Source of the DNA: a virus
Lineage: Duplodnaviria; Caudoviricetes
Length of the DNA: 27,784 nt
IMG/VR virus record: IMGVR_UViG_3300036833_000118
Location: 1-27,784 of that record
Direction: 5' to 3' (one strand)
This document shows, piece after piece, positions 6,726-20,291 of this stretch. Both the position numbers and the translations under genes were made by a program. The notes under the pieces are model-generated. The model was not told where the DNA came from. It ran no database searches and saw nothing but the letters and a program-made list of their open reading frames with translations. Within the stretch, counting starts at the first letter, position 1; each line of letters begins with the position of its first letter.

Positions 6726-7151
6726 TTACAGCCTCAGATTAAAACGCGGTGAAGTCTCGGTGGCGCCCATCCTGCGCGCCAGCATGGTGATGTCGGCGTT
6801 TTCCGACGTGAGGCGCCACGTCGAACACTTCCTCCGCTTGGCCCACTCGACGGACACGCGCAGCAGCCTCAAGGCTTCCCACATGCCGCCGTCATCTGCG
6901 CAGATCGCGATGACGTTGCACTCGAACTCGGCGGGTGTCCATGGAACGCAGCACAGCATCGCGATCAGGAGCGCGTTGTCGGTGCGGATCGGAAGGAAGA
7001 GCAGCGGTGACTTGAGGACGATGTTGACGAACCAGCCTTCGGTGCCCTCAATGTCGAATTTGTCCGGCGGGTAGCGCTTGGCGAAGACCATGCGGAGCCA
7101 TGGCAGATCGGCCTCGGACATCGGCCGAACGGTGACTTCTTCTTTGGTCAC
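6726..7151 (-). CDS. GNAT-fold acyltransferase-like virion assembly protein
   Basis: VTVRPMSEADLPWL N-terminus and EWAKRRKC...LARRMGA C-terminus fit the GNAT pattern. GTG start overlaps the upstream TGA. Podophages often carry such a gene before the ejection genes. Confidence 0.6.
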   Translation of the reverse strand: MTKEEVTVRPMSEADLPWLRMVFAKRYPPDKFDIEGTEGWFVNIVLKSPLLFLPIRTDNALLIAMLCCVPWTPAEFECNVIAICADDGGMWEALRLLRVSVEWAKRRKCSTWRLTSENADITMLARRMGATETSPRFNLRL

Positions 7152-7549
7152 CAAAAGGGGTACGTCCAGCTTATCGCTGGCGGAGGCAGGGCCACATTCG
7201 GCGAGATCGTGTTGGCGCCCACGTAGTGCTCGATCCAATTGTCGAACTCCCAGAGTTTGCGTTGCCTTGGATCGTCCAAGTCATAATCGCGCAGGAGGCC
7301 ACCTATGCGCAAGCCTATCGTTGACGCTCCAAACTCGGTTGGCAGGTGCTGTAGTGCGTCATTTTGGGCGGTCTGATGGTTCAAGGCCCACGGCCCGGCC
7401 GGATTGGCGGGCTGCATCTCGTCGATGAAATATGGAACGACGCTAAACCTGTCGAGAGGGGACATTACCCCGAGGGCATTCCTATGCGACATAGCATGTT
7501 GAAAAGCGAATGTCGGATCGCTGAAGTTCAGCAACTCCAGAGAGGACAT
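7148..7549 (-). CDS. Hypothetical virion-operon protein
   Basis: ATG at 7549, 1 nt after the upstream stop. 133 aa with spaced His residues (FQHAMSH, LNHQTAQ, IEHY). Confidence 0.7.
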   Translation of the reverse strand: MSSLELLNFSDPTFAFQHAMSHRNALGVMSPLDRFSVVPYFIDEMQPANPAGPWALNHQTAQNDALQHLPTEFGASTIGLRIGGLLRDYDLDDPRQRKLWEFDNWIEHYVGANTISPNVALPPPAISWTYPFW

Positions 7550-7550
7550 G

Positions 7551-7853
7551 TCACTCGCCCGGCTTATCGCGGCCTCGCACCGACCGCGACAACAGCGTTG
7601 ATGCTTCCTGCGGCGGGGCGCGGGTGTTGTGCGAGCCGATTGGATCGAAGCCTTTCGGCGAAACGCGATCAACTCCCATGTCCGACGATGGGCCGTCCAT
7701 CAAAAGTCCGCCCGGCCCCACTCTCGGCTCCGTTCCAAGTCGCAGCGGCCCGGCTACAGCGCGATCCGTCCGCCGGAAGCCATCAGGCGTGAGGAAGTCG
7801 GCCACGGGTTGACGCTTTACCGGCGGCCATTCACCTTGCTTACGCTCTGGCAT
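7551..7853 (-). CDS. Hypothetical protein
   Basis: TAATG coupling to the upstream peptide; GGAGG SD; 100 aa. Confidence 0.65.
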   Translation of the reverse strand: MPERKQGEWPPVKRQPVADFLTPDGFRRTDRAVAGPLRLGTEPRVGPGGLLMDGPSSDMGVDRVSPKGFDPIGSHNTRAPPQEASTLLSRSVRGRDKPGE

Positions 7854-7933
7854 TACTTCCTCCGTTTATGTCGGCGAGCCTTGCGGAGATTGCGCCGCGC
7901 GGCGGCTTTCTGTTTTCCCGTCGGTCTTGCCAT
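7853..7933 (-). CDS. 26-aa basic peptide MARPTGKQKAAARRNLRKARRHKRRK
   Basis: Strong SD AAGGAG followed by CTTGACAC-ATG. Stop overlaps the next start (TAATG). 13 of 26 residues are R/K, none acidic. Confidence 0.75.
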   Translation of the reverse strand: MARPTGKQKAAARRNLRKARRHKRRK

Positions 7934-8273
7934 GTGTCAAGCTCCTTTCTTGACGCTTGATCAGTCGCTCGTACATCCGCCACGGCAGCACCACAAGCGG
8001 GTCCTGCCGATCGCGCTTCAGGAACAGCAGATCATACTCGCCAAGCCAGCGCTCCAGCAGCGCAAAGCCTTCGCCGTCCTTTCGTGCCTTGACTTCCGCA
8101 ACGGCAGGGGCTTCTTCCCTGCCAAACGCGTAGATGTCGAGATCATATCCCTGACCGCGAAAATGCGAAGCACCACTGAGAGGGTAGCGCTCCGCATGGA
8201 CGCCAATCTCTTTGTGTGCGTTGACGATCTCGCATTCGACCCGGTTGCCTTTGCGCCGCTGGCTTGCACTCAT
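7866..8273 (-). CDS. PD-(D/E)XK Holliday junction resolvase-like endonuclease (Hjc-type)
   Basis: SQRRKGNRVECE...PLSGA...YDLDI...AEVKARK motif. AGGAG SD and ATGA coupling. Confidence 0.75.
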   Translation of the reverse strand: MSASQRRKGNRVECEIVNAHKEIGVHAERYPLSGASHFRGQGYDLDIYAFGREEAPAVAEVKARKDGEGFALLERWLGEYDLLFLKRDRQDPLVVLPWRMYERLIKRQERSLTHGKTDGKTESRRAAQSPQGSPT

Positions 8274-8446
8274 CTTCGCTTGCTCCTGACTGGGCCAGTG
8301 CGCGCACCGGGTCGCGGACTGCGACCACCGCGTTCACGGCCACCTCCCCTTTTTGCACGTGACCAATCGCTTGGAAACGCATCATCGTGCCACGGCATTC
8401 TGCACACCGGGCCGCGACCGCCCGGATGATGTTTGCGCCGGGCCAT
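8270..8446 (-). CDS. 58-aa Arg/Gly-rich basic peptide (MARRKHHPGGRG...RSKRR)
   Basis: ATG 1 nt after the upstream TAA; its stop overlaps the resolvase ATG. Confidence 0.65.
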   Translation of the reverse strand: MARRKHHPGGRGPVCRMPWHDDAFPSDWSRAKRGGGRERGGRSPRPGARTGPVRSKRR

Positions 8447-8447
8447 G

Positions 8448-8594
8448 TTACGGGTTCCGTCGGCTGCGTCGTCCGCGTCCGAGGCCCTGCCGGTGGCCAC
8501 GCGCCCGCTTGACCCGACTTGTCGGACGAAGCGTAGCGAAGCGGCCGGCGGGATCGACGCGGGAGCGCGGCCCAAGGTTGATACCTCTAGCCAT
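8448..8594 (-). CDS. 48-aa Arg-rich basic peptide (MARGINLGPRSR...GRGRRSRRNP)
   Basis: SD GAGGAGG; TGATG coupling with the upstream ORF. Confidence 0.7.
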   Translation of the reverse strand: MARGINLGPRSRVDPAGRFATLRPTSRVKRARGHRQGLGRGRRSRRNP

Positions 8595-8770
8595 CAGAGC
8601 CTCCTCATCGGTCTCATTGTGGAACGGGACGCCATGTGTGGTCCCTTGCGATAACTGTTGGGCCGGGGGACAAAGCGGGGCAGCCGCCAGTCCCCCGGCT
8701 TGACCGGGTTTGCGGCCCTCATAAGATTTCGCGCATTGTTGTGGGCAGACCCAATACGCGGGGCGGGCAT
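8594..8770 (-). CDS. 58-aa basic peptide (MPAPRIGSAHNNARNLMRAANPVKPGDWRLPRFVPRPNSYRKGPHMASRSTMRPMRRL)
   Basis: SD GGAGG; TAA-ATG abutting; fills the gap exactly between its neighbours. Confidence 0.7.
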   Translation of the reverse strand: MPAPRIGSAHNNARNLMRAANPVKPGDWRLPRFVPRPNSYRKGPHMASRSTMRPMRRL

Positions 8771-8839
8771 TTACCGCCTCCGTGAGCGCCGCGCTCTGAT
8801 CCTGCGGGCTCTGCGGGTCATTCTCAGTTTCCGTGCCAT
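8771..8839 (-). CDS. 22-aa protamine-like peptide MARKLRMTRRARRIRARRSRRR
   Basis: 12 Arg + 1 Lys. AGGCGG upstream; stop abuts the next ATG. Confidence 0.7.
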   Translation of the reverse strand: MARKLRMTRRARRIRARRSRRR

Positions 8840-8849
8840 GCGGCACCGC

Positions 8850-8900
8850 CTATCGGCGGCTACGACGGCGCCGGCTACGCCTTCCGCGACGTTTGGCCAT
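8850..8900 (-). CDS. 16-aa protamine-like peptide MAKRRGRRSRRRRSRR
   Basis: 10 Arg + 1 Lys. SD GGGAG about 9 nt upstream; first ORF after the nozzle gene. Confidence 0.65.
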   Translation of the reverse strand: MAKRRGRRSRRRRSRR

Positions 8901-8963
8901 TTGCTCTTCTCCCATTTCTGGTGTGAGGCTAAGTTGTTACGCGCGGGCAGCGTACTCCTTTTG

Positions 8964-10589
8964 TCAAGCCCCGAAAAGCGTCCTTTGCTCGCCGCCGACG
9001 TGAAGCCTCTCGATCGTGAAATCCGGGGACAGGCTGGTGAGGTCGATCGCGGCTGCAATACCGCCGCCCTCGATCGGCTGCGGCAGAATGTCGGAAATCT
9101 TGCCGTCGGTTAGCTCGAAGCCGACGTCCTGCACGCCGGCCGGCACGCCGCCTCCGCTCGTCGTCACGGTGCCGGTGATGCCGACGCCCCTCCCGAAATT
9201 GTCGGTCAGTTCCAGATACAAGCGCTTGAAATTCTTGATGGTGAGCATTGCGGTCCCGGAGCCGCGCAGCGCCTTGGTCGAGAGCCGCTTCGGCAGTTGG
9301 TTGTCCGGCTGCGCAAAGAGTTGGTAGAGCGAGGTGCCGTCGGTCCCGTAGGGTATGAGGGTGCTGTCCTGCTCGTAGTGCGCAATCTGGGTCAGTTCGA
9401 GGTTCTGGCTGGCGACGGACCAGAACTGGTTTCCCTGTGTCGGGTGCCACATCAGCAGCAGGTTTCGCGTCACGCCAAACGGGTCCTTGAAGCGCCCGTT
9501 GCAGAGCAGCACGCGGAAGCCGAACATGGTTGCGGTGCACATCGTCGGCAGATAAAGCGACGTGTCCAGCGTGTTGTAGATGTTGGTGACCTTGCCGCCA
9601 ATCTCCTGCGCGTCGCCGCCCTGCATCAGATAGATGCCGGCGCCATTGTACATCGTCATGTAACGGCCGATGCGACCGACCGGACGCGGGAAGCGGTGGC
9701 CGACTTGCGGATCAATGTTGGCGTAGTTGAAGTTCGTGACGTAGGGCGATCCGGTGGCGCCTGTGCCGGACAGTTGGATGTTGCTGATCAGGTCGGTCGA
9801 ACTGTCGCCGAACACGAACAGGTAGCCGGCCGACGCCGCCATGTCCATGAAACTGTAAGTCAGCTTGTCGCCGAAGTAGCCGAACGATCCGCCGCCGTTC
9901 GTGGTCGAAAAGTCGGCCCCGTTCGAGGGCGCCGAGAAGCTGACGACATCCTTGCCGGCAACGAACAGCCGCTCCTGATAAACCTCCATGGTGTAGATGC
10001 CGGGCAAGCCAGTCGGCATGACAGTCACCGGGGGAGGCGGAGTGATCTCGGCCGCATCGGTCAGCCAGTCCGGCGCGGTCTGTCCGGGCGAGGTCAGCAC
10101 CTGACCGTCCCATGCGTAGAGCCCTTTTGGCGAACCGAACAGCACGCCGCCGCTCTGGCCTTGCACACTGCCGAAGAAGCGCGGGCGCCAGACCTTGGCG
10201 CAGCCCCAGTATTGCGGCGCGATCGGCTCCCAGATCACGCCGATCCGCGTGACCGTCTTGAGGTCGAGATCGACTTGGTCGATGTTGCCGTCGGATAGAA
10301 ACATCCAGCCCAGACGCCCGCCGTTAGCGGGGCCGGGTGCAGCAAACTGCGGAGTGGGATACCCGATGAACCCGAGGAAGATACGTAGGATCGTAGTGCC
10401 CGCTGGAGCGGTGTAGATCGCCGGGCCATGGCCCCAGCAGGAGCGCAGGTTTCCGGGTCCGATGGCGAACAGGTTCTCATTCCACCATTCTTGTTGATCA
10501 TCTATAGTGCCCCGTGTAGCCTGTTGGTTCAAACCCCTAAATTGATCCAGCGTAAAAATTTCCGGAGGATTTGCGCTTTGTATAGGCAT
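8964..10589 (-). CDS. Putative tail nozzle / packaged-DNA stabilisation protein (P22 gp10 / T7 gp12 analogue)
   Basis: 541 aa, beta-rich repeats (ERLFVAG, YLFVFG), N-terminal FRGLN motif, located downstream of the adaptor. Confidence 0.7.
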   Translation of the reverse strand: MPIQSANPPEIFTLDQFRGLNQQATRGTIDDQQEWWNENLFAIGPGNLRSCWGHGPAIYTAPAGTTILRIFLGFIGYPTPQFAAPGPANGGRLGWMFLSDGNIDQVDLDLKTVTRIGVIWEPIAPQYWGCAKVWRPRFFGSVQGQSGGVLFGSPKGLYAWDGQVLTSPGQTAPDWLTDAAEITPPPPVTVMPTGLPGIYTMEVYQERLFVAGKDVVSFSAPSNGADFSTTNGGGSFGYFGDKLTYSFMDMAASAGYLFVFGDSSTDLISNIQLSGTGATGSPYVTNFNYANIDPQVGHRFPRPVGRIGRYMTMYNGAGIYLMQGGDAQEIGGKVTNIYNTLDTSLYLPTMCTATMFGFRVLLCNGRFKDPFGVTRNLLLMWHPTQGNQFWSVASQNLELTQIAHYEQDSTLIPYGTDGTSLYQLFAQPDNQLPKRLSTKALRGSGTAMLTIKNFKRLYLELTDNFGRGVGITGTVTTSGGGVPAGVQDVGFELTDGKISDILPQPIEGGGIAAAIDLTSLSPDFTIERLHVGGEQRTLFGA

Positions 10590-11069
10590 GATCTGACCGC
10601 CGCCGACGTTCGTTCACTTCTCGATTATAACCCTAACACAGGCGCGTTGACTTGGCGCGCTACCAAAAGCGGCCGTCGCCGCAAGGTCGCTGGAACGACT
10701 GGAGAATGGGGTAACCACGGGAAGCGCCGCCGCACTATCACCATCGATTATGTAATCTACAAGGCTCACCGGATCATCTGGCTTTGGATGACTGGCAAAT
10801 GGCCGACGCGCACGATTGACCACGTCAATCGCAATGCGCTCGATAATCGCTGGAAGAATTTGCGGCTTGCTACACCGTTGCTCCAAGTCACAAATCGAGA
10901 CATGCTCAGAAACAACAAAAGCGGCACGACCGGCGTTTTCTTTGATAAGTCCAAAAAGACAAATCCGTGGCGTGTTGAGGTGCGCAATACCTACGTCGGA
11001 GTGTTTCCCACCAAAGAGGCAGCCCGCAAGATCGCTAAACGTCATTTTCTTCCCAAGGAAAAATCCTAA
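10578..11069 (+). CDS. HNH homing endonuclease with AP2-like C-terminal domain
   Basis: LLDYNPNTG...YKAHRIIW...IDHVNRNALDNRWKNLRLAT...NNKSGTTGV. TTG start 8 nt after GGAGGA (10564-10569). Confidence 0.88.
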   Translation: MYRHDLTAADVRSLLDYNPNTGALTWRATKSGRRRKVAGTTGEWGNHGKRRRTITIDYVIYKAHRIIWLWMTGKWPTRTIDHVNRNALDNRWKNLRLATPLLQVTNRDMLRNNKSGTTGVFFDKSKKTNPWRVEVRNTYVGVFPTKEAARKIAKRHFLPKEKS

Positions 11070-11557
11070 GTGTCAAGTAAAATGCTTGACACTAATTTGT
11101 CGTATGCGCGTTGGACCTGCGCAAGCATCTGACCGCCGCCCTGTTCCTCCAGATTGGCGATCTCGATCAGCAGCAGATCGAACATATCCTCTCCCGAAAG
11201 CGGCATGATGGTCTTCATGTCGAGGCGGTTCACGACGCGATAGGGCGGCCCGTCCTTGACCGCCTCAACCAGCGCCGAGGGACGATTGCAAGAGGAGAAG
11301 ATGAACGCCAGCCGCTCCGCGAGCGGGCCGATCAATTCAATGATCTCAACACGGTCGGTGAACGGCACGGCTTGGTGGCGAAAGATGTTGGTGCCGTAGA
11401 TGGAATGAAACAGCCCCGCCAAGCAGACGTATTCGGGGGCCTTGCGCTGTTTCAGCAGAGCGTAGGTGCCGACAAGATGGTCGAACAGCGTCCGGCCGGA
11501 ATGCTTGACGCCGCCGGTGCGCGCGCGGAGGAATGTTTCGATCTTTTCATCCAGCAT
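11066..11557 (-). CDS. DUF6817-like (HD-related) protein
   Basis: HSGRTLFDHLVGT...LAGLFHSIYGT...IGPLAERLAFIF signature. Confidence 0.78.
   Translation of the reverse strand: MLDEKIETFLRARTGGVKHSGRTLFDHLVGTYALLKQRKAPEYVCLAGLFHSIYGTNIFRHQAVPFTDRVEIIELIGPLAERLAFIFSSCNRPSALVEAVKDGPPYRVVNRLDMKTIMPLSGEDMFDLLLIEIANLEEQGGGQMLAQVQRAYDKLVSSILLDT
11069..11093. other. Inverted repeat at the convergent HNH/DUF6817 junction
   Basis: agtgtcaag-taaaatg-cttgacact, a perfect 9-bp stem. Confidence 0.6.
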
Positions 11558-12128
11558 CGGGCGTGTCCGTCTTGAACATCAGCGTGACGCGCAGCACCGG
11601 GCAGGTTCGCGAGACCCCGCGCGCCACATGCGGGATCGTGCCGTCAAACATCAGCATCCGGTTCGGGTGCGGATAGACGCTGGCGACAATATCGGTTTTG
11701 CCTTGGTTGAAGAAGACGGTTTCACCGCCCCAGTCAGGATGCCATCGCTGGTGCGGATAGTAGATGGTCGTATAGGTGCCCGGCAGCGTGCTGTCGGTGT
11801 GCAGCGTGCCGTCGCTGCCATAGGCGGCGCCATTGGCGTAGCAGCGGATCAGGCGATGACCCGGCAGCAGATGCTCCGCAAGGTGACGCCAGAAGGCGAG
11901 GATGATCGGAACCGCCGCTAGCTCGTGCTCGCAGTCGTAGGCGTCATGCTCCGCAGTGCCGGGCCGGTAGCCGCCGAAATGTCGGTGCCAGAATGCAAAG
12001 CTGTCGGTCTTGTCCTGCGATTTCCAGCCAAATGCCCAGCCGCCGGCATGCAGGAAATTGTTGACCGCCCGACGTTGTTCGTCCGGCAGCACGTCATTGT
12101 GGATGCGATAGACGAGTTCATCCGCCAT
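11547..12128 (-). CDS. 2OG-Fe(II) oxygenase, prolyl-4-hydroxylase-like
   Basis: HTD (HxD), WGGET, PNRMLMFDGTIPH, distal R (LRVTLMFK). Likely start MADELV at 12128. Confidence 0.88.
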   Translation of the reverse strand: MADELVYRIHNDVLPDEQRRAVNNFLHAGGWAFGWKSQDKTDSFAFWHRHFGGYRPGTAEHDAYDCEHELAAVPIILAFWRHLAEHLLPGHRLIRCYANGAAYGSDGTLHTDSTLPGTYTTIYYPHQRWHPDWGGETVFFNQGKTDIVASVYPHPNRMLMFDGTIPHVARGVSRTCPVLRVTLMFKTDTPDAG

Positions 12129-12966
12129 CGCCGCCGCCGCCGCCGTCGCCGCCGCCGCCGTCGCCACCGCCGGTGCCGTCGCCGCCGGTGCCATCGCCGC
12201 CGGTGCCGTCGGCACCATCGGTACCGTCGGTGGCGCCATCTTCACCTTCTGTCCCATCTTCGCCTACGACGCCATCGAAGCCGACCGTCGAGGGGCCGAC
12301 GGGAGCGCCCATGGGGCCACTAAATCCCACCCCCGAGAGCCCCGGGCCGAATGCCCCTTCCGGGGCTCCAAACGCGCTCGGGGCCGGACCAACCACTCCG
12401 CTTTCAGGTGCCCCGAAAGTGGCAGGTCCCGGTCCACCGAAGGGGCCGCCGCCATCACTCGGGGCGCCGCCACCGCCACCGCCACCGCCACCACCGCCGC
12501 CGCCGCCACCACCGCCGCCGCCGCCACCACCGCCGCCGTCCGTGCCGCCGCCTGTGCCGCCGCCTGTGCCGCCATCCGTACCTGCACCACCGCCAAAGCC
12601 ATCACCGCCAAAACCACCGCCAAAGCCATCACCGCCGCCAACGCCGCCAAAGCCGCCGCCCGCGCTGTTAAACTTTCCGCCGCCGCCATAGGGATACCCA
12701 GCACCGCCGCCGGCCAGTTGGGCGAGAGACGGCGAGAAGCTTGCTTGGAACTGGGGTTGCAACTGGGGCTGGGGCGCGAACTGAGGTGGTTGGAAACCTC
12801 CGCCACCCCTACCAAGAGCCCACTGATCCGGAGACTGGGGTTGAGGCTGGGGTTGGTACTGGGGTTGAGGCTGCGGCTGAAACTGGGGTTGCATCGCAGG
12901 CTGACTTGCCGGAAGAACCCCGCCGCCCCTACCAAACGCCCGCTGATACATGGGTGGAAGTGGCAT
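12118..12966 (-). CDS. Gly-rich low-complexity protein (PQ repeats, poly-Gly, GP/FG block, GGD tail)
   Basis: SD AGGAG; ATG 1 nt after the adaptor stop; 282 aa. Confidence 0.65.
   Translation of the reverse strand: MPLPPMYQRAFGRGGGVLPASQPAMQPQFQPQPQPQYQPQPQPQSPDQWALGRGGGGFQPPQFAPQPQLQPQFQASFSPSLAQLAGGGAGYPYGGGGKFNSAGGGFGGVGGGDGFGGGFGGDGFGGGAGTDGGTGGGTGGGTDGGGGGGGGGGGGGGGGGGGGGGGGAPSDGGGPFGGPGPATFGAPESGVVGPAPSAFGAPEGAFGPGLSGVGFSGPMGAPVGPSTVGFDGVVGEDGTEGEDGATDGTDGADGTGGDGTGGDGTGGGDGGGGDGGGGGDGG
12466..12537 (-). repeat. GGC/GGT trinucleotide run encoding 24 consecutive Gly
   Basis: (gcc/acc)x24 on the + strand. Confidence 0.9.
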
Positions 12967-12967
12967 G

Positions 12968-13660
12968 TCACGCACTCCTGAGTGTTGCGCCATATGCGTT
13001 CGCGATGAACTGCGGACAGACGGCGGCAGCGCACATCGGCAGTTCGGTGTTGAAGAGTTGTGCCATCGCCTGCGCGTCCTCCCGACGCTGTTGCTGTAGC
13101 AGGCACAGCACCGCCGACCAGTAGGCGATCGCGTCGTTCCACGGATAGGGGATCGGCTCCGGGTCGTTGTCGGTGAGCAGCGGGAACGGGATGCATGTGA
13201 GATCGACATCCATCGGCATTTCCATCGACGGGATCGGCGCGAGATAGAGCTTGCCGATCGGGCCGTCGTTCAACTGCGCGTACCAACCCGGCTCGCTGAT
13301 CGCACCGTAGAAGGTGCCGTTGTAGATGCGGAAGCGCGCCTGAAAATCGGTCCACACGACGCGGCGCCACATCGGCTTCCAGCCGCCTTTGCCGATCGCG
13401 ATCGCGAGCGAGCGGCAGGACAGGATCGACTGCACGCCGGTCATCTCCTGCTGCACGAGGGCATTCCAGTCGGAGAACGGATAAATCTCCTGACCCGGCT
13501 TAGTCATGGTTCCGGGAGGGACGACGCGGAGGCACCCGCTGGAAGCTGCCACCCTTCGGCGAGCGCGATTGATGTAGCTGGTCAGGGTTGGCAGGCTGAA
13601 GAACTGCCCCTGCGGATCGTTCAGGAAATTCTGCGTCTCCGTGATGTATCGAGACAGCAT
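12968..13660 (-). CDS. Putative head-tail adaptor protein
   Basis: MLSRYITETQNFLNDP...LTSYINRARRRVA...LYLAPIPS...DPEPIPYPWNDAIAY is a typical podophage adaptor pattern. Confidence 0.72.
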   Translation of the reverse strand: MLSRYITETQNFLNDPQGQFFSLPTLTSYINRARRRVAASSGCLRVVPPGTMTKPGQEIYPFSDWNALVQQEMTGVQSILSCRSLAIAIGKGGWKPMWRRVVWTDFQARFRIYNGTFYGAISEPGWYAQLNDGPIGKLYLAPIPSMEMPMDVDLTCIPFPLLTDNDPEPIPYPWNDAIAYWSAVLCLLQQQRREDAQAMAQLFNTELPMCAAAVCPQFIANAYGATLRSA

Positions 13661-14816: not shown

Positions 14817-15845
14817 CTACGGAGCCGGCGCGGCCGGGAAGCCCGGTGCACCACCCGTGATCCCGCTCAGAATGACCCCGGTCGATGGCTTCGAGCATAC
14901 GAGGTTCAGCGCGGTGAGCGTCAGACCGACGCTGGCGATCTGGCCTTGCGGAATGGTCGAGTACCAGCCGGTCCACGCGAAGTTGGCGTCCTCGTGAATG
15001 ACCAGCGTGATGTACTTGCTGTTGAAACCGAACGCAGTGCCGACCGGACAGTTGAGATCGAAGAAGATCGGGGTGTCACCCAATAGAAGCCCACGGAAAC
15101 CGGAATTGACCGGATCGTCCTTGCCCCAGCGCGAGGAGGGATCGTTGTTGTAGCGTTCTACCGACATGAAGTCGGTGAGCAGTGTCGTCCAGTCCTCGAC
15201 GCTCGTCACCACGAAATCGAGCGCCTCGCCGCCCGAGTGTTTCACCGCCTTGAGCAGCGCCGGGATGAACGTTGCTCGGGTGAGGATGGCGCCTGCGGCC
15301 GGCACGCTGAGCCCGGCCCATGCCGGATAGGTGGCGCGATCGAGGCCGCCATAGACGCCGGTGGCGCCATAGGCGTCGTTGAGCGAGAACATTTGCAGGA
15401 CGTTCGTGGTAGCAGGTCCGAACAGTGCCCCGGCGAGCGATGCCAACGCCGAGTTCTTCATGTCGTTCAGCTTGAGCATCAGCCGCGAGGCCACCGCGAT
15501 GGCGTCCTGCGTGACCAGTTGCTCAAGGCCAAGCGAAGTCACTGGCGTTGCCAGCGCACACATGTTGAACTCGGCGTTGACGGTTGCCGCTACATCTGCG
15601 GGTAGGTTGAATTGCCCAGCCGGGCCGATCCAAGAACTCGTTACATATTGCCCGGTCTGCACCGGCTGGGTGTAGGGCGATACGCCGCCCGAGGCGCGGA
15701 TGGCATTTCTGAGGAGTAGCGCCAGCAGCGGGTTCTGCCGATAGAGCAGCACGACCACCATTTGAGAGAACACGCGACGCACGGTCGCTTGCAATTCGAG
15801 GCCTATCGGGCCACTCGGAATTAAGCCGGTGCCGAGGACGGGCAT
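14817..15845 (-). CDS. Major capsid protein
   Basis: 342 aa following the scaffold; strong SD AGGAG; YGGLDRATYPAW and GFRGL...TPIFFD motifs seen in podophage capsids. Confidence 0.85.
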   Translation of the reverse strand: MPVLGTGLIPSGPIGLELQATVRRVFSQMVVVLLYRQNPLLALLLRNAIRASGGVSPYTQPVQTGQYVTSSWIGPAGQFNLPADVAATVNAEFNMCALATPVTSLGLEQLVTQDAIAVASRLMLKLNDMKNSALASLAGALFGPATTNVLQMFSLNDAYGATGVYGGLDRATYPAWAGLSVPAAGAILTRATFIPALLKAVKHSGGEALDFVVTSVEDWTTLLTDFMSVERYNNDPSSRWGKDDPVNSGFRGLLLGDTPIFFDLNCPVGTAFGFNSKYITLVIHEDANFAWTGWYSTIPQGQIASVGLTLTALNLVCSKPSTGVILSGITGGAPGFPAAPAP

Positions 15846-17113: not shown

Positions 17114-17214
17114 AGCGTTCACCCTCTTAGCCGCCCCACCAGCGGGGGCAGGGGCATTGGTCGCCAGCGGGGCGGTGCCTCCTTTTCGAGGAGAGGCGGC
17201 CGGAACCTACACCC

Positions 17215-18933
17215 TCATCCCCGCTTCCGTCCAGCCTTCCCCGCCTGCTTGTGCTGGCCGATCCCGATGACGTCGCGTACCAAGTCCTCCTGCTTCTGCT
17301 CTTGCGCAGCCTTCGCCTGATCTTTCTGGCGCTGCCGCAAACGGGCGAGCAGCAGTTCGGCGCCCGGCGGATGCAGCATGTGGATCAGGTCCTCGCTGTC
17401 AATGGCGCCGGCCCGGGCGAGTGCGATCGCCACTTGCCGGTTGTCCTCGGCGAATGCCGGCGAGGCCGAATGGCTATCGACCTGCACTTGGAACCCTTCC
17501 GGCATATCAACCAAGGTGAACTCGGTTCCCTTGTCGGTGACGTAGATCGAGGCGTCCATGGCCTGCATGATGCGGAGCGCGAGATATCCGCTGGTGGCAA
17601 GCTGACGTTCAACGCGAGCCGCTTGATCGATCAATCGGGGGGATGATGTCCGAACCAACGTCTGCGCGTGAACGCCAGCACGCACGCCCGGCTCGCCCTG
17701 TCCACCCATGATTGGCGAAAAACCGGATGCCTCGTCAAACAGCTTGAACAGGAACTCCAGTTCCTGAAGATAGTTTTCCGGCGGCGGTTCGACCAGCTTC
17801 GACGCCTTGGCGTTCGGGTTGGGGTCGTTCATGAAGCCGCCTTCGTTGATGATCTTGAAATATTGCTCCTCGGTCACCGACGTGAAGCCGGAAAGGACCT
17901 GCGGCGCATTGACGTTGCGGTCCCACATCACCTTGATGTCACGGAGCCGCTTGGTCAGCACGTCCTGCAACATCTGCACATCGGCGACCATGGAGCGGCC
18001 CCAGAAGTAGCCCGGAGTGGCCTGCGCCTGCACCTTGATGAAGGGCTGGTGGCCGGGGACGCGCGAGATGTTGCGGCGCTGGTTTTCGCCTTCGATGATG
18101 ATCATCTCGGGGCCGTAAACCGCCTGAATTGTCGTATAGTCGCCCTGTCGCTTGCTGTCCTTGACCCAGAGTTCGCAGAGTTTCACCGTCGGCTGGAATT
18201 GCTGTTGCGGTCGCCACGGGGTCGGGACCGGGAATACGTTGACGATGCCGGCCGCCGATGGCTGATCGCCAACGTCGCCCAGCGGCTGGAGGCCGCCGAC
18301 CACCATCTGGTGGAAGTAGCTCGGTTCCATCTCTTCGCGCTTGGACGGCGAGGCGTCGAGGATGCGCTCGAAGATCGCTTTCTTCTTCGGGTGGTCGATA
18401 TCCTCCAGTATGGAGCGCAGCCGCGAGATCGTCGGATAGCTGACGTGGCAGAACGCCTCCTGCTCATCGAGATCGAGCACGGTCTCGGACATGACGCCGA
18501 AATTCTGCGGATGCACGGGCGCGAGCTTGAAGCTGCCATGATCGGACGGCATGTGCTTGAGCAAATAGCAGCCGTTGACCAGCGACCACACCGTTGCCTC
18601 GGCGAAGGTGATATCGCTGTCGGTCTGGCGATAGTCGGCTGTCAGCTTTTCGCTTGTCACCTGCGCGCGTTCGAGCACGTCCTCGGGTTCGGTGCTGTCG
18701 AAGATGATGTTGAAGCGCACATCGGTCGGCTGCATCAGGAAGCCGGCAAGGCGATCGATGAACGGTTTGATCTTGTTGTAGATCGCCGCCTGCGAGCTAT
18801 AGGTGCCCATGTAGTAGTATTGATTGGCGCGGGTGTAGACGAGGCCCCGCTCTTCTGACGAGGCCATGGTCTCGTCAACAACTTCCTTGGTCCACTCTTC
18901 GAGTTCTTGGTTATTCTCCGGGATACGCAACAT
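17215..18933 (-). CDS. Portal protein
   Basis: 572 aa from MLRIPENN; IYNKIKPFID, FWGRSMVADV..LQ motifs and a Q-rich C-terminal helix; located between terminase and scaffold. Confidence 0.85.
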   Translation of the reverse strand: MLRIPENNQELEEWTKEVVDETMASSEERGLVYTRANQYYYMGTYSSQAAIYNKIKPFIDRLAGFLMQPTDVRFNIIFDSTEPEDVLERAQVTSEKLTADYRQTDSDITFAEATVWSLVNGCYLLKHMPSDHGSFKLAPVHPQNFGVMSETVLDLDEQEAFCHVSYPTISRLRSILEDIDHPKKKAIFERILDASPSKREEMEPSYFHQMVVGGLQPLGDVGDQPSAAGIVNVFPVPTPWRPQQQFQPTVKLCELWVKDSKRQGDYTTIQAVYGPEMIIIEGENQRRNISRVPGHQPFIKVQAQATPGYFWGRSMVADVQMLQDVLTKRLRDIKVMWDRNVNAPQVLSGFTSVTEEQYFKIINEGGFMNDPNPNAKASKLVEPPPENYLQELEFLFKLFDEASGFSPIMGGQGEPGVRAGVHAQTLVRTSSPRLIDQAARVERQLATSGYLALRIMQAMDASIYVTDKGTEFTLVDMPEGFQVQVDSHSASPAFAEDNRQVAIALARAGAIDSEDLIHMLHPPGAELLLARLRQRQKDQAKAAQEQKQEDLVRDVIGIGQHKQAGKAGRKRG

Positions 18934-19618: not shown

Positions 19619-19891
19619 CTACAAGGTCAATTCCTTAATGATCCACATAACGCTTTCCTCCAGCGAGGTGAGGGCTAGCGCTTGATAACGGAGCGAGCCC
19701 GGGACGTTCTCAGCCTTCGGCATCACTTTCGCATAGAGCGTTTCCAGTTCTTCGGCCTTGGTCTTGATCTGATCGTGCAGCGCCTTCTCATCGTTGGTCA
19801 GCGCGCGGTAGCGCGGCCGGAAGCGTGAAGTCGCCAGCTTGACATCGTCGCTCTGGCGAGCATCTGGTTCACCTTCGTAGACATTCGGCAT
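19619..19891 (-). CDS. acb2: Acb2/Tad1-like nucleotide-signal sponge (putative anti-CBASS/anti-Thoeris)
   Basis: YRALTNDEKALHDQIKTKAEEL...RYQALALTSLEESVMWIIKEL resembles the Acb2 YRxLSxEE..N.K and R..AxAxTxL..xxM hairpin; 90 aa. Confidence 0.68.
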   Translation of the reverse strand: MPNVYEGEPDARQSDDVKLATSRFRPRYRALTNDEKALHDQIKTKAEELETLYAKVMPKAENVPGSLRYQALALTSLEESVMWIIKELTL

Positions 19892-20291
19892 GGTCTCTGC
19901 CTTTCAAATGTGGGAGGTTACTTGCTTGCCGGCCGTGCTTGACCCGATCCAGTGCATTGTCGCTTCGTGTGCCGTAACGGATGTTGCTACGTCGAGTATT
20001 CAGCTTGTCACCATCATTGTGACACACTTCTTCCCCCAACGGGCAAGGGCCAATGAAAGCGAGTGCGAGGAGGCGATGAATTGGAACGCCGGGATGTCCA
20101 CCACCAAGTTTCACTCTCAGGTATCCACTGTTGAGGACGGGGGTTAATACGCGGCCCGGAAAGCGCCGAAACGCGGGTCTGTTGGTTGTTTCGCTACGCG
20201 GATCGTAAATCAAACGATCAATGCTGCGAACGCGGCCAAGGTCTGAAACCTCGTAACCGGGATGGCCGGGGATTGCGCGCCATTCTTCCAT
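19869..20291 (-). CDS. NUMOD4-HNH homing endonuclease
   Basis: EEWRAIPGHPGYEVSDLGRVRS (NUMOD4) and HRLLALAF...CHNDGDKLN...NIRYGTRSDN (HNH). Confidence 0.9.
   Translation of the reverse strand: MEEWRAIPGHPGYEVSDLGRVRSIDRLIYDPRSETTNRPAFRRFPGRVLTPVLNSGYLRVKLGGGHPGVPIHRLLALAFIGPCPLGEEVCHNDGDKLNTRRSNIRYGTRSDNALDRVKHGRQASNLPHLKGRDHAECLRR

What the first reader, a model, noticed from the sequence alone, without database searches (positions are those of the whole stretch)
7853..8900. Array of six tiny Arg-rich protamine-like genes inside the virion operon
Seen: between the nozzle and ejection genes lie short, closely packed ORFs, most with SD motifs: MAKRRGRRSRRRRSRR (8850-8900), MARKLRMTRRARRIRARRSRRR (8771-8839), a 58-aa basic ORF (8594-8770), 48-aa MARGINL...GRGRRSRRNP (8448-8594), 58-aa MARRKHH...RSKRR (8270-8446) and MARPTGKQKAAARRNLRKARRHKRRK (7853-7933). 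Junctions are TAA-ATG, TGATG, ATGA or TAATG, and five of six start MAR/MAK. None is correctly delimited by the 60-aa ORF track. Known: protamines, baculovirus P6.9, adenovirus VII/mu and microvirus J are small basic genome-condensing proteins, whereas tailed phages are generally thought to package naked DNA. Inference: a multi-peptide DNA-condensing or charge-neutralising core system, or co-ejected DNA-shielding or ribosome/membrane-active peptides.
Basis: partly seen in the sequence, partly recalled or inferred. Interest (0 to 1): 0.9.

Follow-up and report, generated by a model that had tools for sequence, protein, structure and literature searches.

The report
Protamine-like peptide array in tailed phages
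A family of uncultured tailed phages keeps a fixed row of tiny, overlooked, arginine-rich genes under protein-level selection among its virion genes, and these peptides likely bind and partly neutralise the DNA inside the phage head, a protamine-like job not expected in tailed phages and not yet tested.

Summary
Confirmed. Six minus-strand ORFs (16–58 aa; each net +11 to +14) lie between a likely tail-nozzle gene and the GNAT/ejection genes of an uncultured terminase/HK97-fold phage; the sixth follows an inserted resolvase gene. All 50 of 50 informative loci of the clade (window included; nozzle-like gene 49–88% identical) carry 3–8 such peptides in fixed order. Five families show purifying selection in the predicted frame (pN/pS 0.27–0.47; nozzle control 0.46). 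Most families join a short conserved motif to an arginine tail. A distant sister clade (capsid ~36% identical) has 10–14-aa Lys/Arg peptides behind the portal gene in 56 of 58 loci. No Pfam, PHROG or ESM Atlas family matched, and ten paper searches listed no tailed-phage precedent. Best reading (0.5, inferred): internal head peptides that dock on virion proteins and partly neutralise packaged DNA. Rivals: intracellular DNA coating, capsid cement, RNA/ribosome binding, lysis. No expression, virion or binding data exist, and polycations are reported to impair phage DNA ejection. The scan's index held no look-alike of this DNA.

The parts
8850..8900 (-). Peptide A, 16 aa, pure protamine-like (MAKRRGRRSRRRRSRR), net +11; SD upstream; an in-frame ATG at 8915 is probably not the start
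   Evidence: type A in 34 of 50 loci; not tested by pN/pS (low complexity)
8771..8839 (-). Peptide B, 22 aa, net +13, core motif TRRARRIRAR
   Evidence: 43 of 50 loci by the automatic count, which missed the window's own copy; pN/pS 0.27
8594..8770 (-). Peptide C, 58 aa, net +12, WRLP..PR..SYRKG motif, ends RRL
   Evidence: 44 of 50 loci; alignment; pN/pS 0.45
8448..8594 (-). Peptide D, 48 aa, net +14, near-invariant LGPRSRVDPAG motif plus Arg/Gly tail
   Evidence: 46 of 50 loci; alignment; pN/pS 0.47
8270..8446 (-). Peptide E, 58 aa, net +13, two motifs (PW..D..P.DW and PRPG.RTGP)
   Evidence: 40 of 50 loci; alignment; pN/pS 0.43
7866..8273 (-). Holliday-junction-resolvase-like PD-(D/E)XK gene, 135 aa, inside the array; the slot holds RuvC-like or VRR-NUC genes in other members
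   Evidence: PF24608, phrog_244; slot 21 RuvC-like, 17 VRR-NUC, 9 PD-(D/E)XK in 47 loci
7853..7933 (-). Peptide F, 26 aa, net +13, predicted basic helix QKAAARRNLRKARR, own SD, overlaps the resolvase 3' end
   Evidence: 35 of 50 loci; alignment; pN/pS 0.45
7551..7853 (-). Conserved 100-aa protein of no known family; closes the array on the 3' side
   Evidence: cluster in 47 of 47 loci; no Pfam/PHROG hit
8964..10589 (-). 541-aa likely tail nozzle/hub; fixed 5' anchor of the array
   Evidence: identity weak
6726..7238 (-). GNAT-like gene that opens the putative ejection-gene block (start codon uncertain)
   Evidence: phrog_1249; a ~530-aa gene directly abuts a GNAT gene in Mx8 and BUCT555
14817..15845 (-). 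Major capsid protein, HK97 fold (context)
   Evidence: phrog_9953; PDB 7f38 by sequence profile E 9e-6 and by fold E 7e-5
17215..18933 (-). Likely portal (572 aa, net -16) ending in a Gly/Lys/Arg-rich tail (context)
   Evidence: weak PF23899 hit, E 0.0012, below the curated cut-off; last 15 aa net >=+3 in 67 of 69 distinct tails

Best explanation
The array is a conserved set of separate arginine-rich peptide genes under protein-level selection in the phage's virion gene block, and the peptides are likely internal head components that would dock on head proteins through their short conserved motifs and partly neutralise the packaged DNA with their arginine tails. Shown: real coding genes, separate reading frames with stop-start overlap, fixed position and order, motif-plus-Arg-tail design, similar net charge per peptide. 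Inferred: late co-expression with the virion genes; loading into the procapsid before packaging (a packaging motor would probably strip peptides off incoming DNA; from general knowledge); partial rather than full charge neutralisation, which would lower packaging load or stabilise the particle; possible co-ejection with the DNA.
For: 50 of 50 informative loci carry the array; order B<C<D<E<F kept in 47 of 47. pN/pS 0.27-0.47 in frame, 1.19-2.28 in the two shifted sense frames, nozzle control 0.46. SD-led basic micro-ORFs occur at 1.375/kb inside the interval and 0.009/kb outside. All E hits (56 of 56), all F hits (8 of 8) and all D hits with enough upstream DNA (54 of 76; 22 too short) lie downstream of the nozzle-like gene. 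Net charge varies less than length across 256 distinct peptides (CV 0.22 vs 0.42). A sister clade has 10-14-aa Lys/Arg peptides between portal and head genes in 56 of 58 loci and none in 576 kb elsewhere; these are too short to fold and fit a generic polyanion-binding job. Portal C-termini of the clade end in similar basic Gly-rich tails (67 of 69). The likely portal (-16) and a putative ejection protein (-15) are acidic.
Against: No evidence of expression, of presence in virions or of DNA binding. PMC3281028 (passages) states there is no evidence that basic proteins contribute much to neutralising phage DNA and that dense packing leaves little room. PMC13330545 (passages) reports that Mg2+ or polycations impair ejection and infectivity of lambda and phi29. 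60 copies of each peptide would neutralise only about 5% of a 42-kb genome; 415 copies about 38%, at 11 MDa against 27 MDa of DNA. No shared capsid-targeting sequence like that of T4 internal proteins, only a common MAR start (154 of 293 have AR at positions 2-3). The interval is not purely structural: a resolvase sits inside the array in 47 of 47 loci, so position alone does not prove a virion role. Mx8 and BUCT555, with related capsids and 39-50 kb genomes, have no such array, so this virion plan does not need it.
Confidence: 0.5

Rival explanations
1. The peptides act in the infected cell, not the virion: they would coat or compact newly replicated phage DNA (or the host nucleoid) late in infection, shielding it from nucleases while the co-located resolvase debranches it for packaging.
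For: A resolvase-type gene sits between E and F in 47 of 47 loci although three unrelated families fill the slot. It avoids the problems of space in the head and impaired ejection. The composition suits generic DNA binding.
Against: Does not explain the near-invariant non-basic motifs unless they bind proteins; the sister-clade peptides sit in the head module far from any resolvase.
Confidence: 0.2
2. The motif-bearing peptides (C, D, E) are structural cement or docking pieces of capsid, portal or ejection core, like Patience/Adjutor gp4, and the Arg tails are only anchors; net DNA neutralisation is incidental.
For: Invariant short motifs with Trp/Pro; sizes of 40-60 aa match Adjutor gp4 (54 aa; Patience gp4 is disordered when free; PMC11965321 passages).
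Against: Types A, B and the sister-clade 13-mers are almost pure Arg/Lys with no docking motif; copy number per genome varies from 3 to 8 and modules fuse or drop out, which is unusual for stoichiometric cement.
Confidence: 0.12
3. They are RNA- or ribosome-binding regulators (arginine-rich-motif antiterminators, or translation inhibitors) that would tune late gene expression or shut down the host.
For: B and F look like arginine-rich RNA-binding helices (resemblance to lambda N and HIV Rev recalled, not tested). In the sister clade a covarying pseudoknot lies between the two peptide genes.
Against: No Rfam hit in the window; no enrichment of terminator-like sites was shown around the array (8 found vs 4.8 +/- 2.2 in shuffles); six to nine families seem too many for one regulator; the late virion position is atypical of host-shutoff genes.
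Confidence: 0.1
4. They are disruptin-like cationic peptides that would break the outer membrane at lysis.
For: Size and charge overlap phiKT gp28 (56 aa, +7; bioRxiv 10.1101/515445 passages); helical hydrophobic moments of 0.66-0.90 are not low; a muramidase follows the array in 3 of 47 loci.
Against: No muramidase of that family in the interval in 44 of 47 loci; hydrophobic residues are only 0-21% and no 11-residue window is hydrophobic (max 0.04); in sister record MW202753 holin and peptidase genes lie about 19 kb from the peptides.
Confidence: 0.08

Closest known systems
Protamine-like viral core proteins: baculovirus P6.9, adenovirus pVII and mu
   Same: Small, about 30% Arg, Gly/Ser/Pro-rich, no hydrophobic core, encoded among structural genes; PMC3281028 (passages) names these as DNA-condensing proteins.
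   Different: Here in an HK97-fold, terminase-packaged bacterial virus; up to nine short families in one tandem array rather than one or two genes; no sequence match to any Pfam family; no maturation protease or kinase identified in the 55%-complete record.
Microvirus DNA-binding protein J (features recalled, no paper read)
   Same: Phage-encoded basic peptide of 24-40 aa that joins a basic stretch to a capsid-binding motif.
   Different: J serves ssDNA packaged without a terminase motor; no Pfam or PHROG match; here several motif types coexist.
T4 internal proteins IPI, IPII, IPIII
   Same: Small non-essential proteins inside a tailed-phage head at about 360 copies each; IPI is injected with the DNA (PMC9958956 and PMC7697877 passages). 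They show that tailed-phage heads can hold extra small proteins.
   Different: [quoted passage not shown]
Patience/Adjutor gp4 capsid accessory protein
   Same: 54-102 aa, disordered when free, binds HK97-fold hexamers (PMC11965321 passages).
   Different: A single gene; the searched text gave no mention of basic or positively charged character; no similarity was tested or found.
phiKT gp28 disruptin
   Same: 56-aa cationic late peptide of a podophage.
   Different: gp28 lies between endolysin and holin and is predicted amphipathic; these peptides are tied to the nozzle-like gene and poor in hydrophobic residues.

Membership tests
Protamine-like viral core proteins (P6.9, pVII, mu) | Small, arginine-rich, strongly basic product of a real gene | tested here: met
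   16-58 aa, 30% Arg, +11 to +14 each; purifying selection in B-F
Protamine-like viral core proteins (P6.9, pVII, mu) | Sequence homology to a described family | tested here: not met
   No Pfam hit at E<=5 for B-F; PHROG only E 0.017-0.12 to unknown-function families for F; ESM Atlas no usable hit for E; A (16 aa) too short to scan
Protamine-like viral core proteins (P6.9, pVII, mu) | Present in the virion, bound to and condensing the genome | not testable with these tools
   Needs virion proteomics and DNA-binding assays
Protamine-like viral core proteins (P6.9, pVII, mu) | Regulated by phosphorylation or proteolytic maturation | not tested
   No kinase or protease among the 30 window ORFs scanned; record is 55% complete
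Microvirus J | Partner of an ssDNA genome in a jelly-roll capsid | tested here: not met
   Terminase large subunit and HK97-fold capsid
T4 internal proteins | Shared ~10-aa cleavable N-terminal capsid-targeting sequence | tested here: not met
   Only the first 2-3 residues are shared among families
Capsid accessory/cement peptides (gp4 type) | Binds major capsid protein | not tested
Disruptins (phiKT gp28) | Encoded in the lysis cassette beside endolysin and holin | tested here: not met
   Muramidase in the interval in 3 of 47 loci; lysis genes far from the peptides in MW202753
Disruptins (phiKT gp28) | Amphipathic helix with a hydrophobic face | tested here: inconclusive
   Moments 0.66-0.90, but driven by Arg; hydrophobic fraction 0-0.21

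The most novel reading that the evidence does not exclude
A widespread group of short-tailed dsDNA phages packages a protamine-coated genome: a modular kit of up to nine peptide families, each a docking motif plus an arginine tail of about +13, builds a nucleoprotein core inside an HK97-fold head and travels into the cell with the DNA. A minimal two-peptide version exists in a very abundant sister clade, so protein-neutralised genomes may be common in tailed phages and hidden only by gene-length cut-offs and tryptic proteomics.
Probability: 0.35. Interest if true: 0.92.

Novelty: new variant of a known kind. Interest (0 to 1): 0.8.

Why it matters
Tailed phages are held to pack DNA neutralised by small cations and polyamines, with little role for basic proteins (PMC3281028). 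A conserved multi-gene protamine-like array in a terminase/HK97 phage would break that rule. It would make testable how a pressurised head can tolerate polycations, and whether such peptides lower packaging force, stabilise particles or shield injected DNA. It also exposes a blind spot: these genes fall below annotation cut-offs (in MW202753 the stretch is annotated as opposite-strand hypotheticals) and would vanish in tryptic proteomics. Even if a rival is right, this is a new, strongly selected microprotein array with synthesizable 13-58-aa products.

Tried and rejected
Chance ORFs from GC-rich codon shadowing: rejected; the antisense frame that shares third positions also gives pN/pS below 1 (0.41-0.70) but always above the sense frame. 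One polyprotein by readthrough: rejected, C-D overlaps by 1 nt in 31 of 36 loci, D-E by 1 nt in 16 of 26, and B-C spacing falls in all three frames; programmed frameshifting was not tested. Non-coding RNA: no Rfam hit, and third codon positions are the least conserved. Dedicated promoter before the array: a motif trained on post-portal regions scored no better than shuffles in 47 regions (p 0.67). Expression: no RNA holder listed; the one DNA run may be the source of the window, where 24 of the 33 listed variant positions in B-D fell on third codon positions. Cultured close relative: none in INPHARED; best cultured hits Mx8 and BUCT555 at 26-27% capsid identity. Host: three short contigs in MAGs labelled Caulobacteraceae, Xanthobacteraceae and Terriglobales disagree and may be misbinned; unresolved. 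Nozzle fold: low-confidence model, no significant match; Mx8 p52 and the BUCT555 gene at that position showed no detectable similarity. Capsid-peptide complex prediction: tool not available, no verdict. F profile against 1.84 billion representatives: 5 hits, one a 354-aa protein with four repeats of the motif; tblastn of F against INPHARED found nothing. E profile against 5.8 billion proteins: 16 hits, unnamed or 'hypothetical'. Paper searches: searches gave 0 papers; some searches listed papers, none describing such an array by title or abstract start; subscription papers and supplements were not searched.

Full report
Observation. The six ORFs are present as described, on the minus strand: A 8850-8900 (16 aa), B 8771-8839 (22), C 8594-8770 (58), D 8448-8594 (48), E 8270-8446 (58), F 7853-7933 (26). 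They total 228 residues, 30% Arg, net +76, and each carries +11 to +14 whatever its length. Clear SD motifs precede A, C, D and F. F is separated from A-E by a 135-aa PD-(D/E)XK resolvase-like gene (PF24608, phrog_244) and overlaps its last 68 nt. Five basic ATG-ORFs fall in 8270-8963, against 0 of 2000 shuffles reaching five and at most two in 38 same-size windows elsewhere.

Context. The window is a whole, 55%-complete virus record. It encodes a terminase large subunit, a likely portal (weak PF23899 hit), an HK97-fold capsid protein (phrog_9953; nearest structure cyanophage A-1(L)), an adaptor-like gene, a 541-aa gene, the array, a GNAT-like gene and long genes, one with a tail lysozyme domain (PF18013). 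This is a short-tailed-phage layout. The 541-aa 'nozzle' label rests on position and on non-significant Foldseek ranks from a poor model. The longest related contigs are 40-43 kb. The host is unresolved.

Conservation. The nozzle-like gene found 8 IMG/VR loci; the capsid gene found 156, of which the best 80 were kept. Of these 88 loci plus the window, 62 reach the nozzle 3' end; 7 lack the downstream 100-aa anchor and 5 duplicate a contig, leaving 50. All 50 of 50 carry 3-8 basic micro-ORFs (median 6) in that interval. This automatic count is a lower bound: it missed the window's own B. Some loci are near-identical pairs and not independent. Families: D 46, C 44, B 43, E 40, F 35, A 34, plus three absent from the window (H 24, G 13, I 6). 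Order B<C<D<E<F holds in 47 of 47 loci with three or more of them. SD-led basic micro-ORFs occur at 1.375 per kb inside the interval (115 in 84 kb) and 0.009 per kb outside (11 in 1,199 kb); alternative starts count separately. Searches by peptide rather than by neighbour gave the same place: 56 of 56 E loci and 8 of 8 F loci in IMG/VR, and 54 of 76 D loci in JGI metagenomes (22 had too little upstream DNA), lie downstream of the nozzle-like gene; these sets overlap the first.

They are protein-coding. Pairwise pN/pS in the predicted frame is 0.27 (B), 0.45 (C), 0.47 (D), 0.43 (E) and 0.45 (F), like the nozzle control (0.46); shifted sense frames give 1.19-2.28; third-position identity is 0.37-0.43 against 0.62-0.83 at positions 1-2; against the two closest relatives pN/pS is 0.17-0.41. 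A was not tested. 217 of 293 classified peptides have an SD-like word upstream. C-D overlap by one base in 31 of 36 loci and D-E in 16 of 26, the pattern of translational coupling (established knowledge), and one that excludes a simple readthrough polyprotein. No Rfam family matches. No RNA run was listed, so expression is untested.

Anatomy. Most families pair a short conserved motif with an Arg/Gly tail: D LGPRSRVDPAG, E two Trp/Pro motifs, C WRLP..PR..SYRKG, F a QK.AARRNLRKAR helix. Type A is pure protamine-like. Modules are gained, lost, duplicated and once fused (G with H in L006). Net charge varies less than length (CV 0.22 vs 0.42). A resolvase-type gene sits in the interval in 47 of 47 loci, from three unrelated families: 21 RuvC-like, 17 VRR-NUC, 9 PD-(D/E)XK. 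A muramidase is there in only 3 of 47. No Pfam or PHROG family fits B-E; F has only weak PHROG hits; the ESM Atlas gave nothing usable for E.

Beyond the clade. Two GenBank metagenomic phages with 36% capsid identity lack the array after the nozzle homologue (profile E 1.6e-24), but each has two SD-led 13-aa Lys/Arg peptides between the portal and the next head gene. In MW202753 that stretch is annotated as two opposite-strand hypotheticals. Their clade is large (about 1800 stored stretches estimated; 80 loci kept). Of the 58 of 80 loci that span the slot, 56 hold one or two such peptides, and none occurs in 576 kb elsewhere. Homology to type A cannot be shown for so simple a sequence; it may be convergence. 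The cultured phages Mx8 and BUCT555 (26-27% capsid identity) have no array, and a ~530-aa gene directly abuts their GNAT gene. Portal proteins of the window's clade end in basic Gly-rich tails (67 of 69).

Mechanism. Shown: separate, selected, strongly basic peptides fixed in the virion gene block of one clade, and simpler ones in the head module of another. Inferred: late co-expression, loading into the procapsid through the motifs, and partial neutralisation of packaged DNA by the tails (0.5). Against: PMC3281028 (passages) says there is no evidence that basic proteins contribute much to neutralising phage DNA; PMC13330545 (passages) reports that polycations impair ejection; 60 copies of each peptide would neutralise about 5% of 42 kb, and 415 copies 38% at 11 MDa. 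T4 shows that heads can hold about 360 copies each of three internal proteins (PMC9958956, PMC7697877; passages), but through a targeting sequence absent here. Rivals: intracellular coating of replicated DNA beside the resolvase (0.2); gp4-like cement (0.12; PMC11965321 passages); RNA or ribosome binding (0.1); disruptin (0.08; bioRxiv 10.1101/515445 passages). PMC8954989 (passages) added nothing on small basic virion proteins. Microvirus J, lambda N and Rev comparisons are recalled.

Novelty. Ten full-text searches listed no protamine-like array in tailed phages; five gave zero papers, the others were judged from listings and the passages named above. Subscription papers and supplements were not seen. 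The scan's own index had no look-alike by sequence or place and no match by words; one search showed notes on basic core proteins in giant viruses and one tailless bacterial virus, which I did not check. It works, by inference, like P6.9, pVII/mu or J, but fails the homology test and cannot be filed in those families. Verdict: real and strongly conserved, a new variant of a known kind, function untested; interest 0.8.

Noticed in passing
L090:3545-3622 (MW202753) and 31 further sister-clade sequences, alignment A7: A conserved ~60-nt RNA-like element between the two 13-aa peptide genes: a GNRA-type hairpin, then a 4-bp stem whose loop pairs downstream as an H-type pseudoknot just before the SD. 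97.5% of cells pair; 5 of 10 pairs have both-side changes, two of them in the pseudoknot helix (structure set by me from the alignment). No Rfam match. Possible new riboswitch, ribozyme or translational control element.
   Followed up: partly
window 7866-8273 and the same slot in 47 loci: The resolvase slot between E and F has been filled by three unrelated nuclease families (RuvC-like, VRR-NUC, PD-(D/E)XK) without moving.
   Followed up: partly
window 17203-17218 (minus strand), just after the portal stop: A conserved motif (GGG.TAG.TT-like) follows the portal stop in many relatives and is the top-scoring site in the window; late promoter, or a remnant of the sister clade's RNA element.
   Followed up: partly
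L036:16459-17724 and 7 other loci; window 12118-13209: A long Gly-rich, acidic protein (380-560 aa) sits inside the array between resolvase and F in 8 of 47 loci; the window has a Gly-rich ORF with an acidic end elsewhere. A possible acidic partner of the peptides; no Pfam hit.
   Followed up: no
window 11066-12257: A DUF6817 gene and a 2OG-Fe(II) oxygenase gene sit in the virion block after the Gly-rich ORF; perhaps a protein- or DNA-modifying pair.
   Followed up: no
window 19619-19891: Acb2/Tad1 hairpin-domain protein (PF24729), a likely anti-CBASS or anti-Thoeris signal sponge, between terminase and portal.
   Followed up: no
window 10428-11069 (+) and 19869-20291 (-): Two HNH endonuclease genes, one on the opposite strand overlapping the start of the nozzle-like gene.
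   Followed up: no
L052, L059, L067, L068, first 70 nt after the nozzle stop: A stretch resembling the first small peptide gene of L051 but with ACG where ATG would stand; a decayed copy or a non-canonical start.
   Followed up: no
P0017: A 354-aa protein holds four tandem repeats that match the F profile, so the F helix also occurs as a repeated module in an unrelated protein.
   Followed up: no
L091:23503-23652 and L317:25407-25634: Other small basic proteins in the sister-clade records (49 aa, phrog_2423; 75 aa) outside the head module.
   Followed up: no
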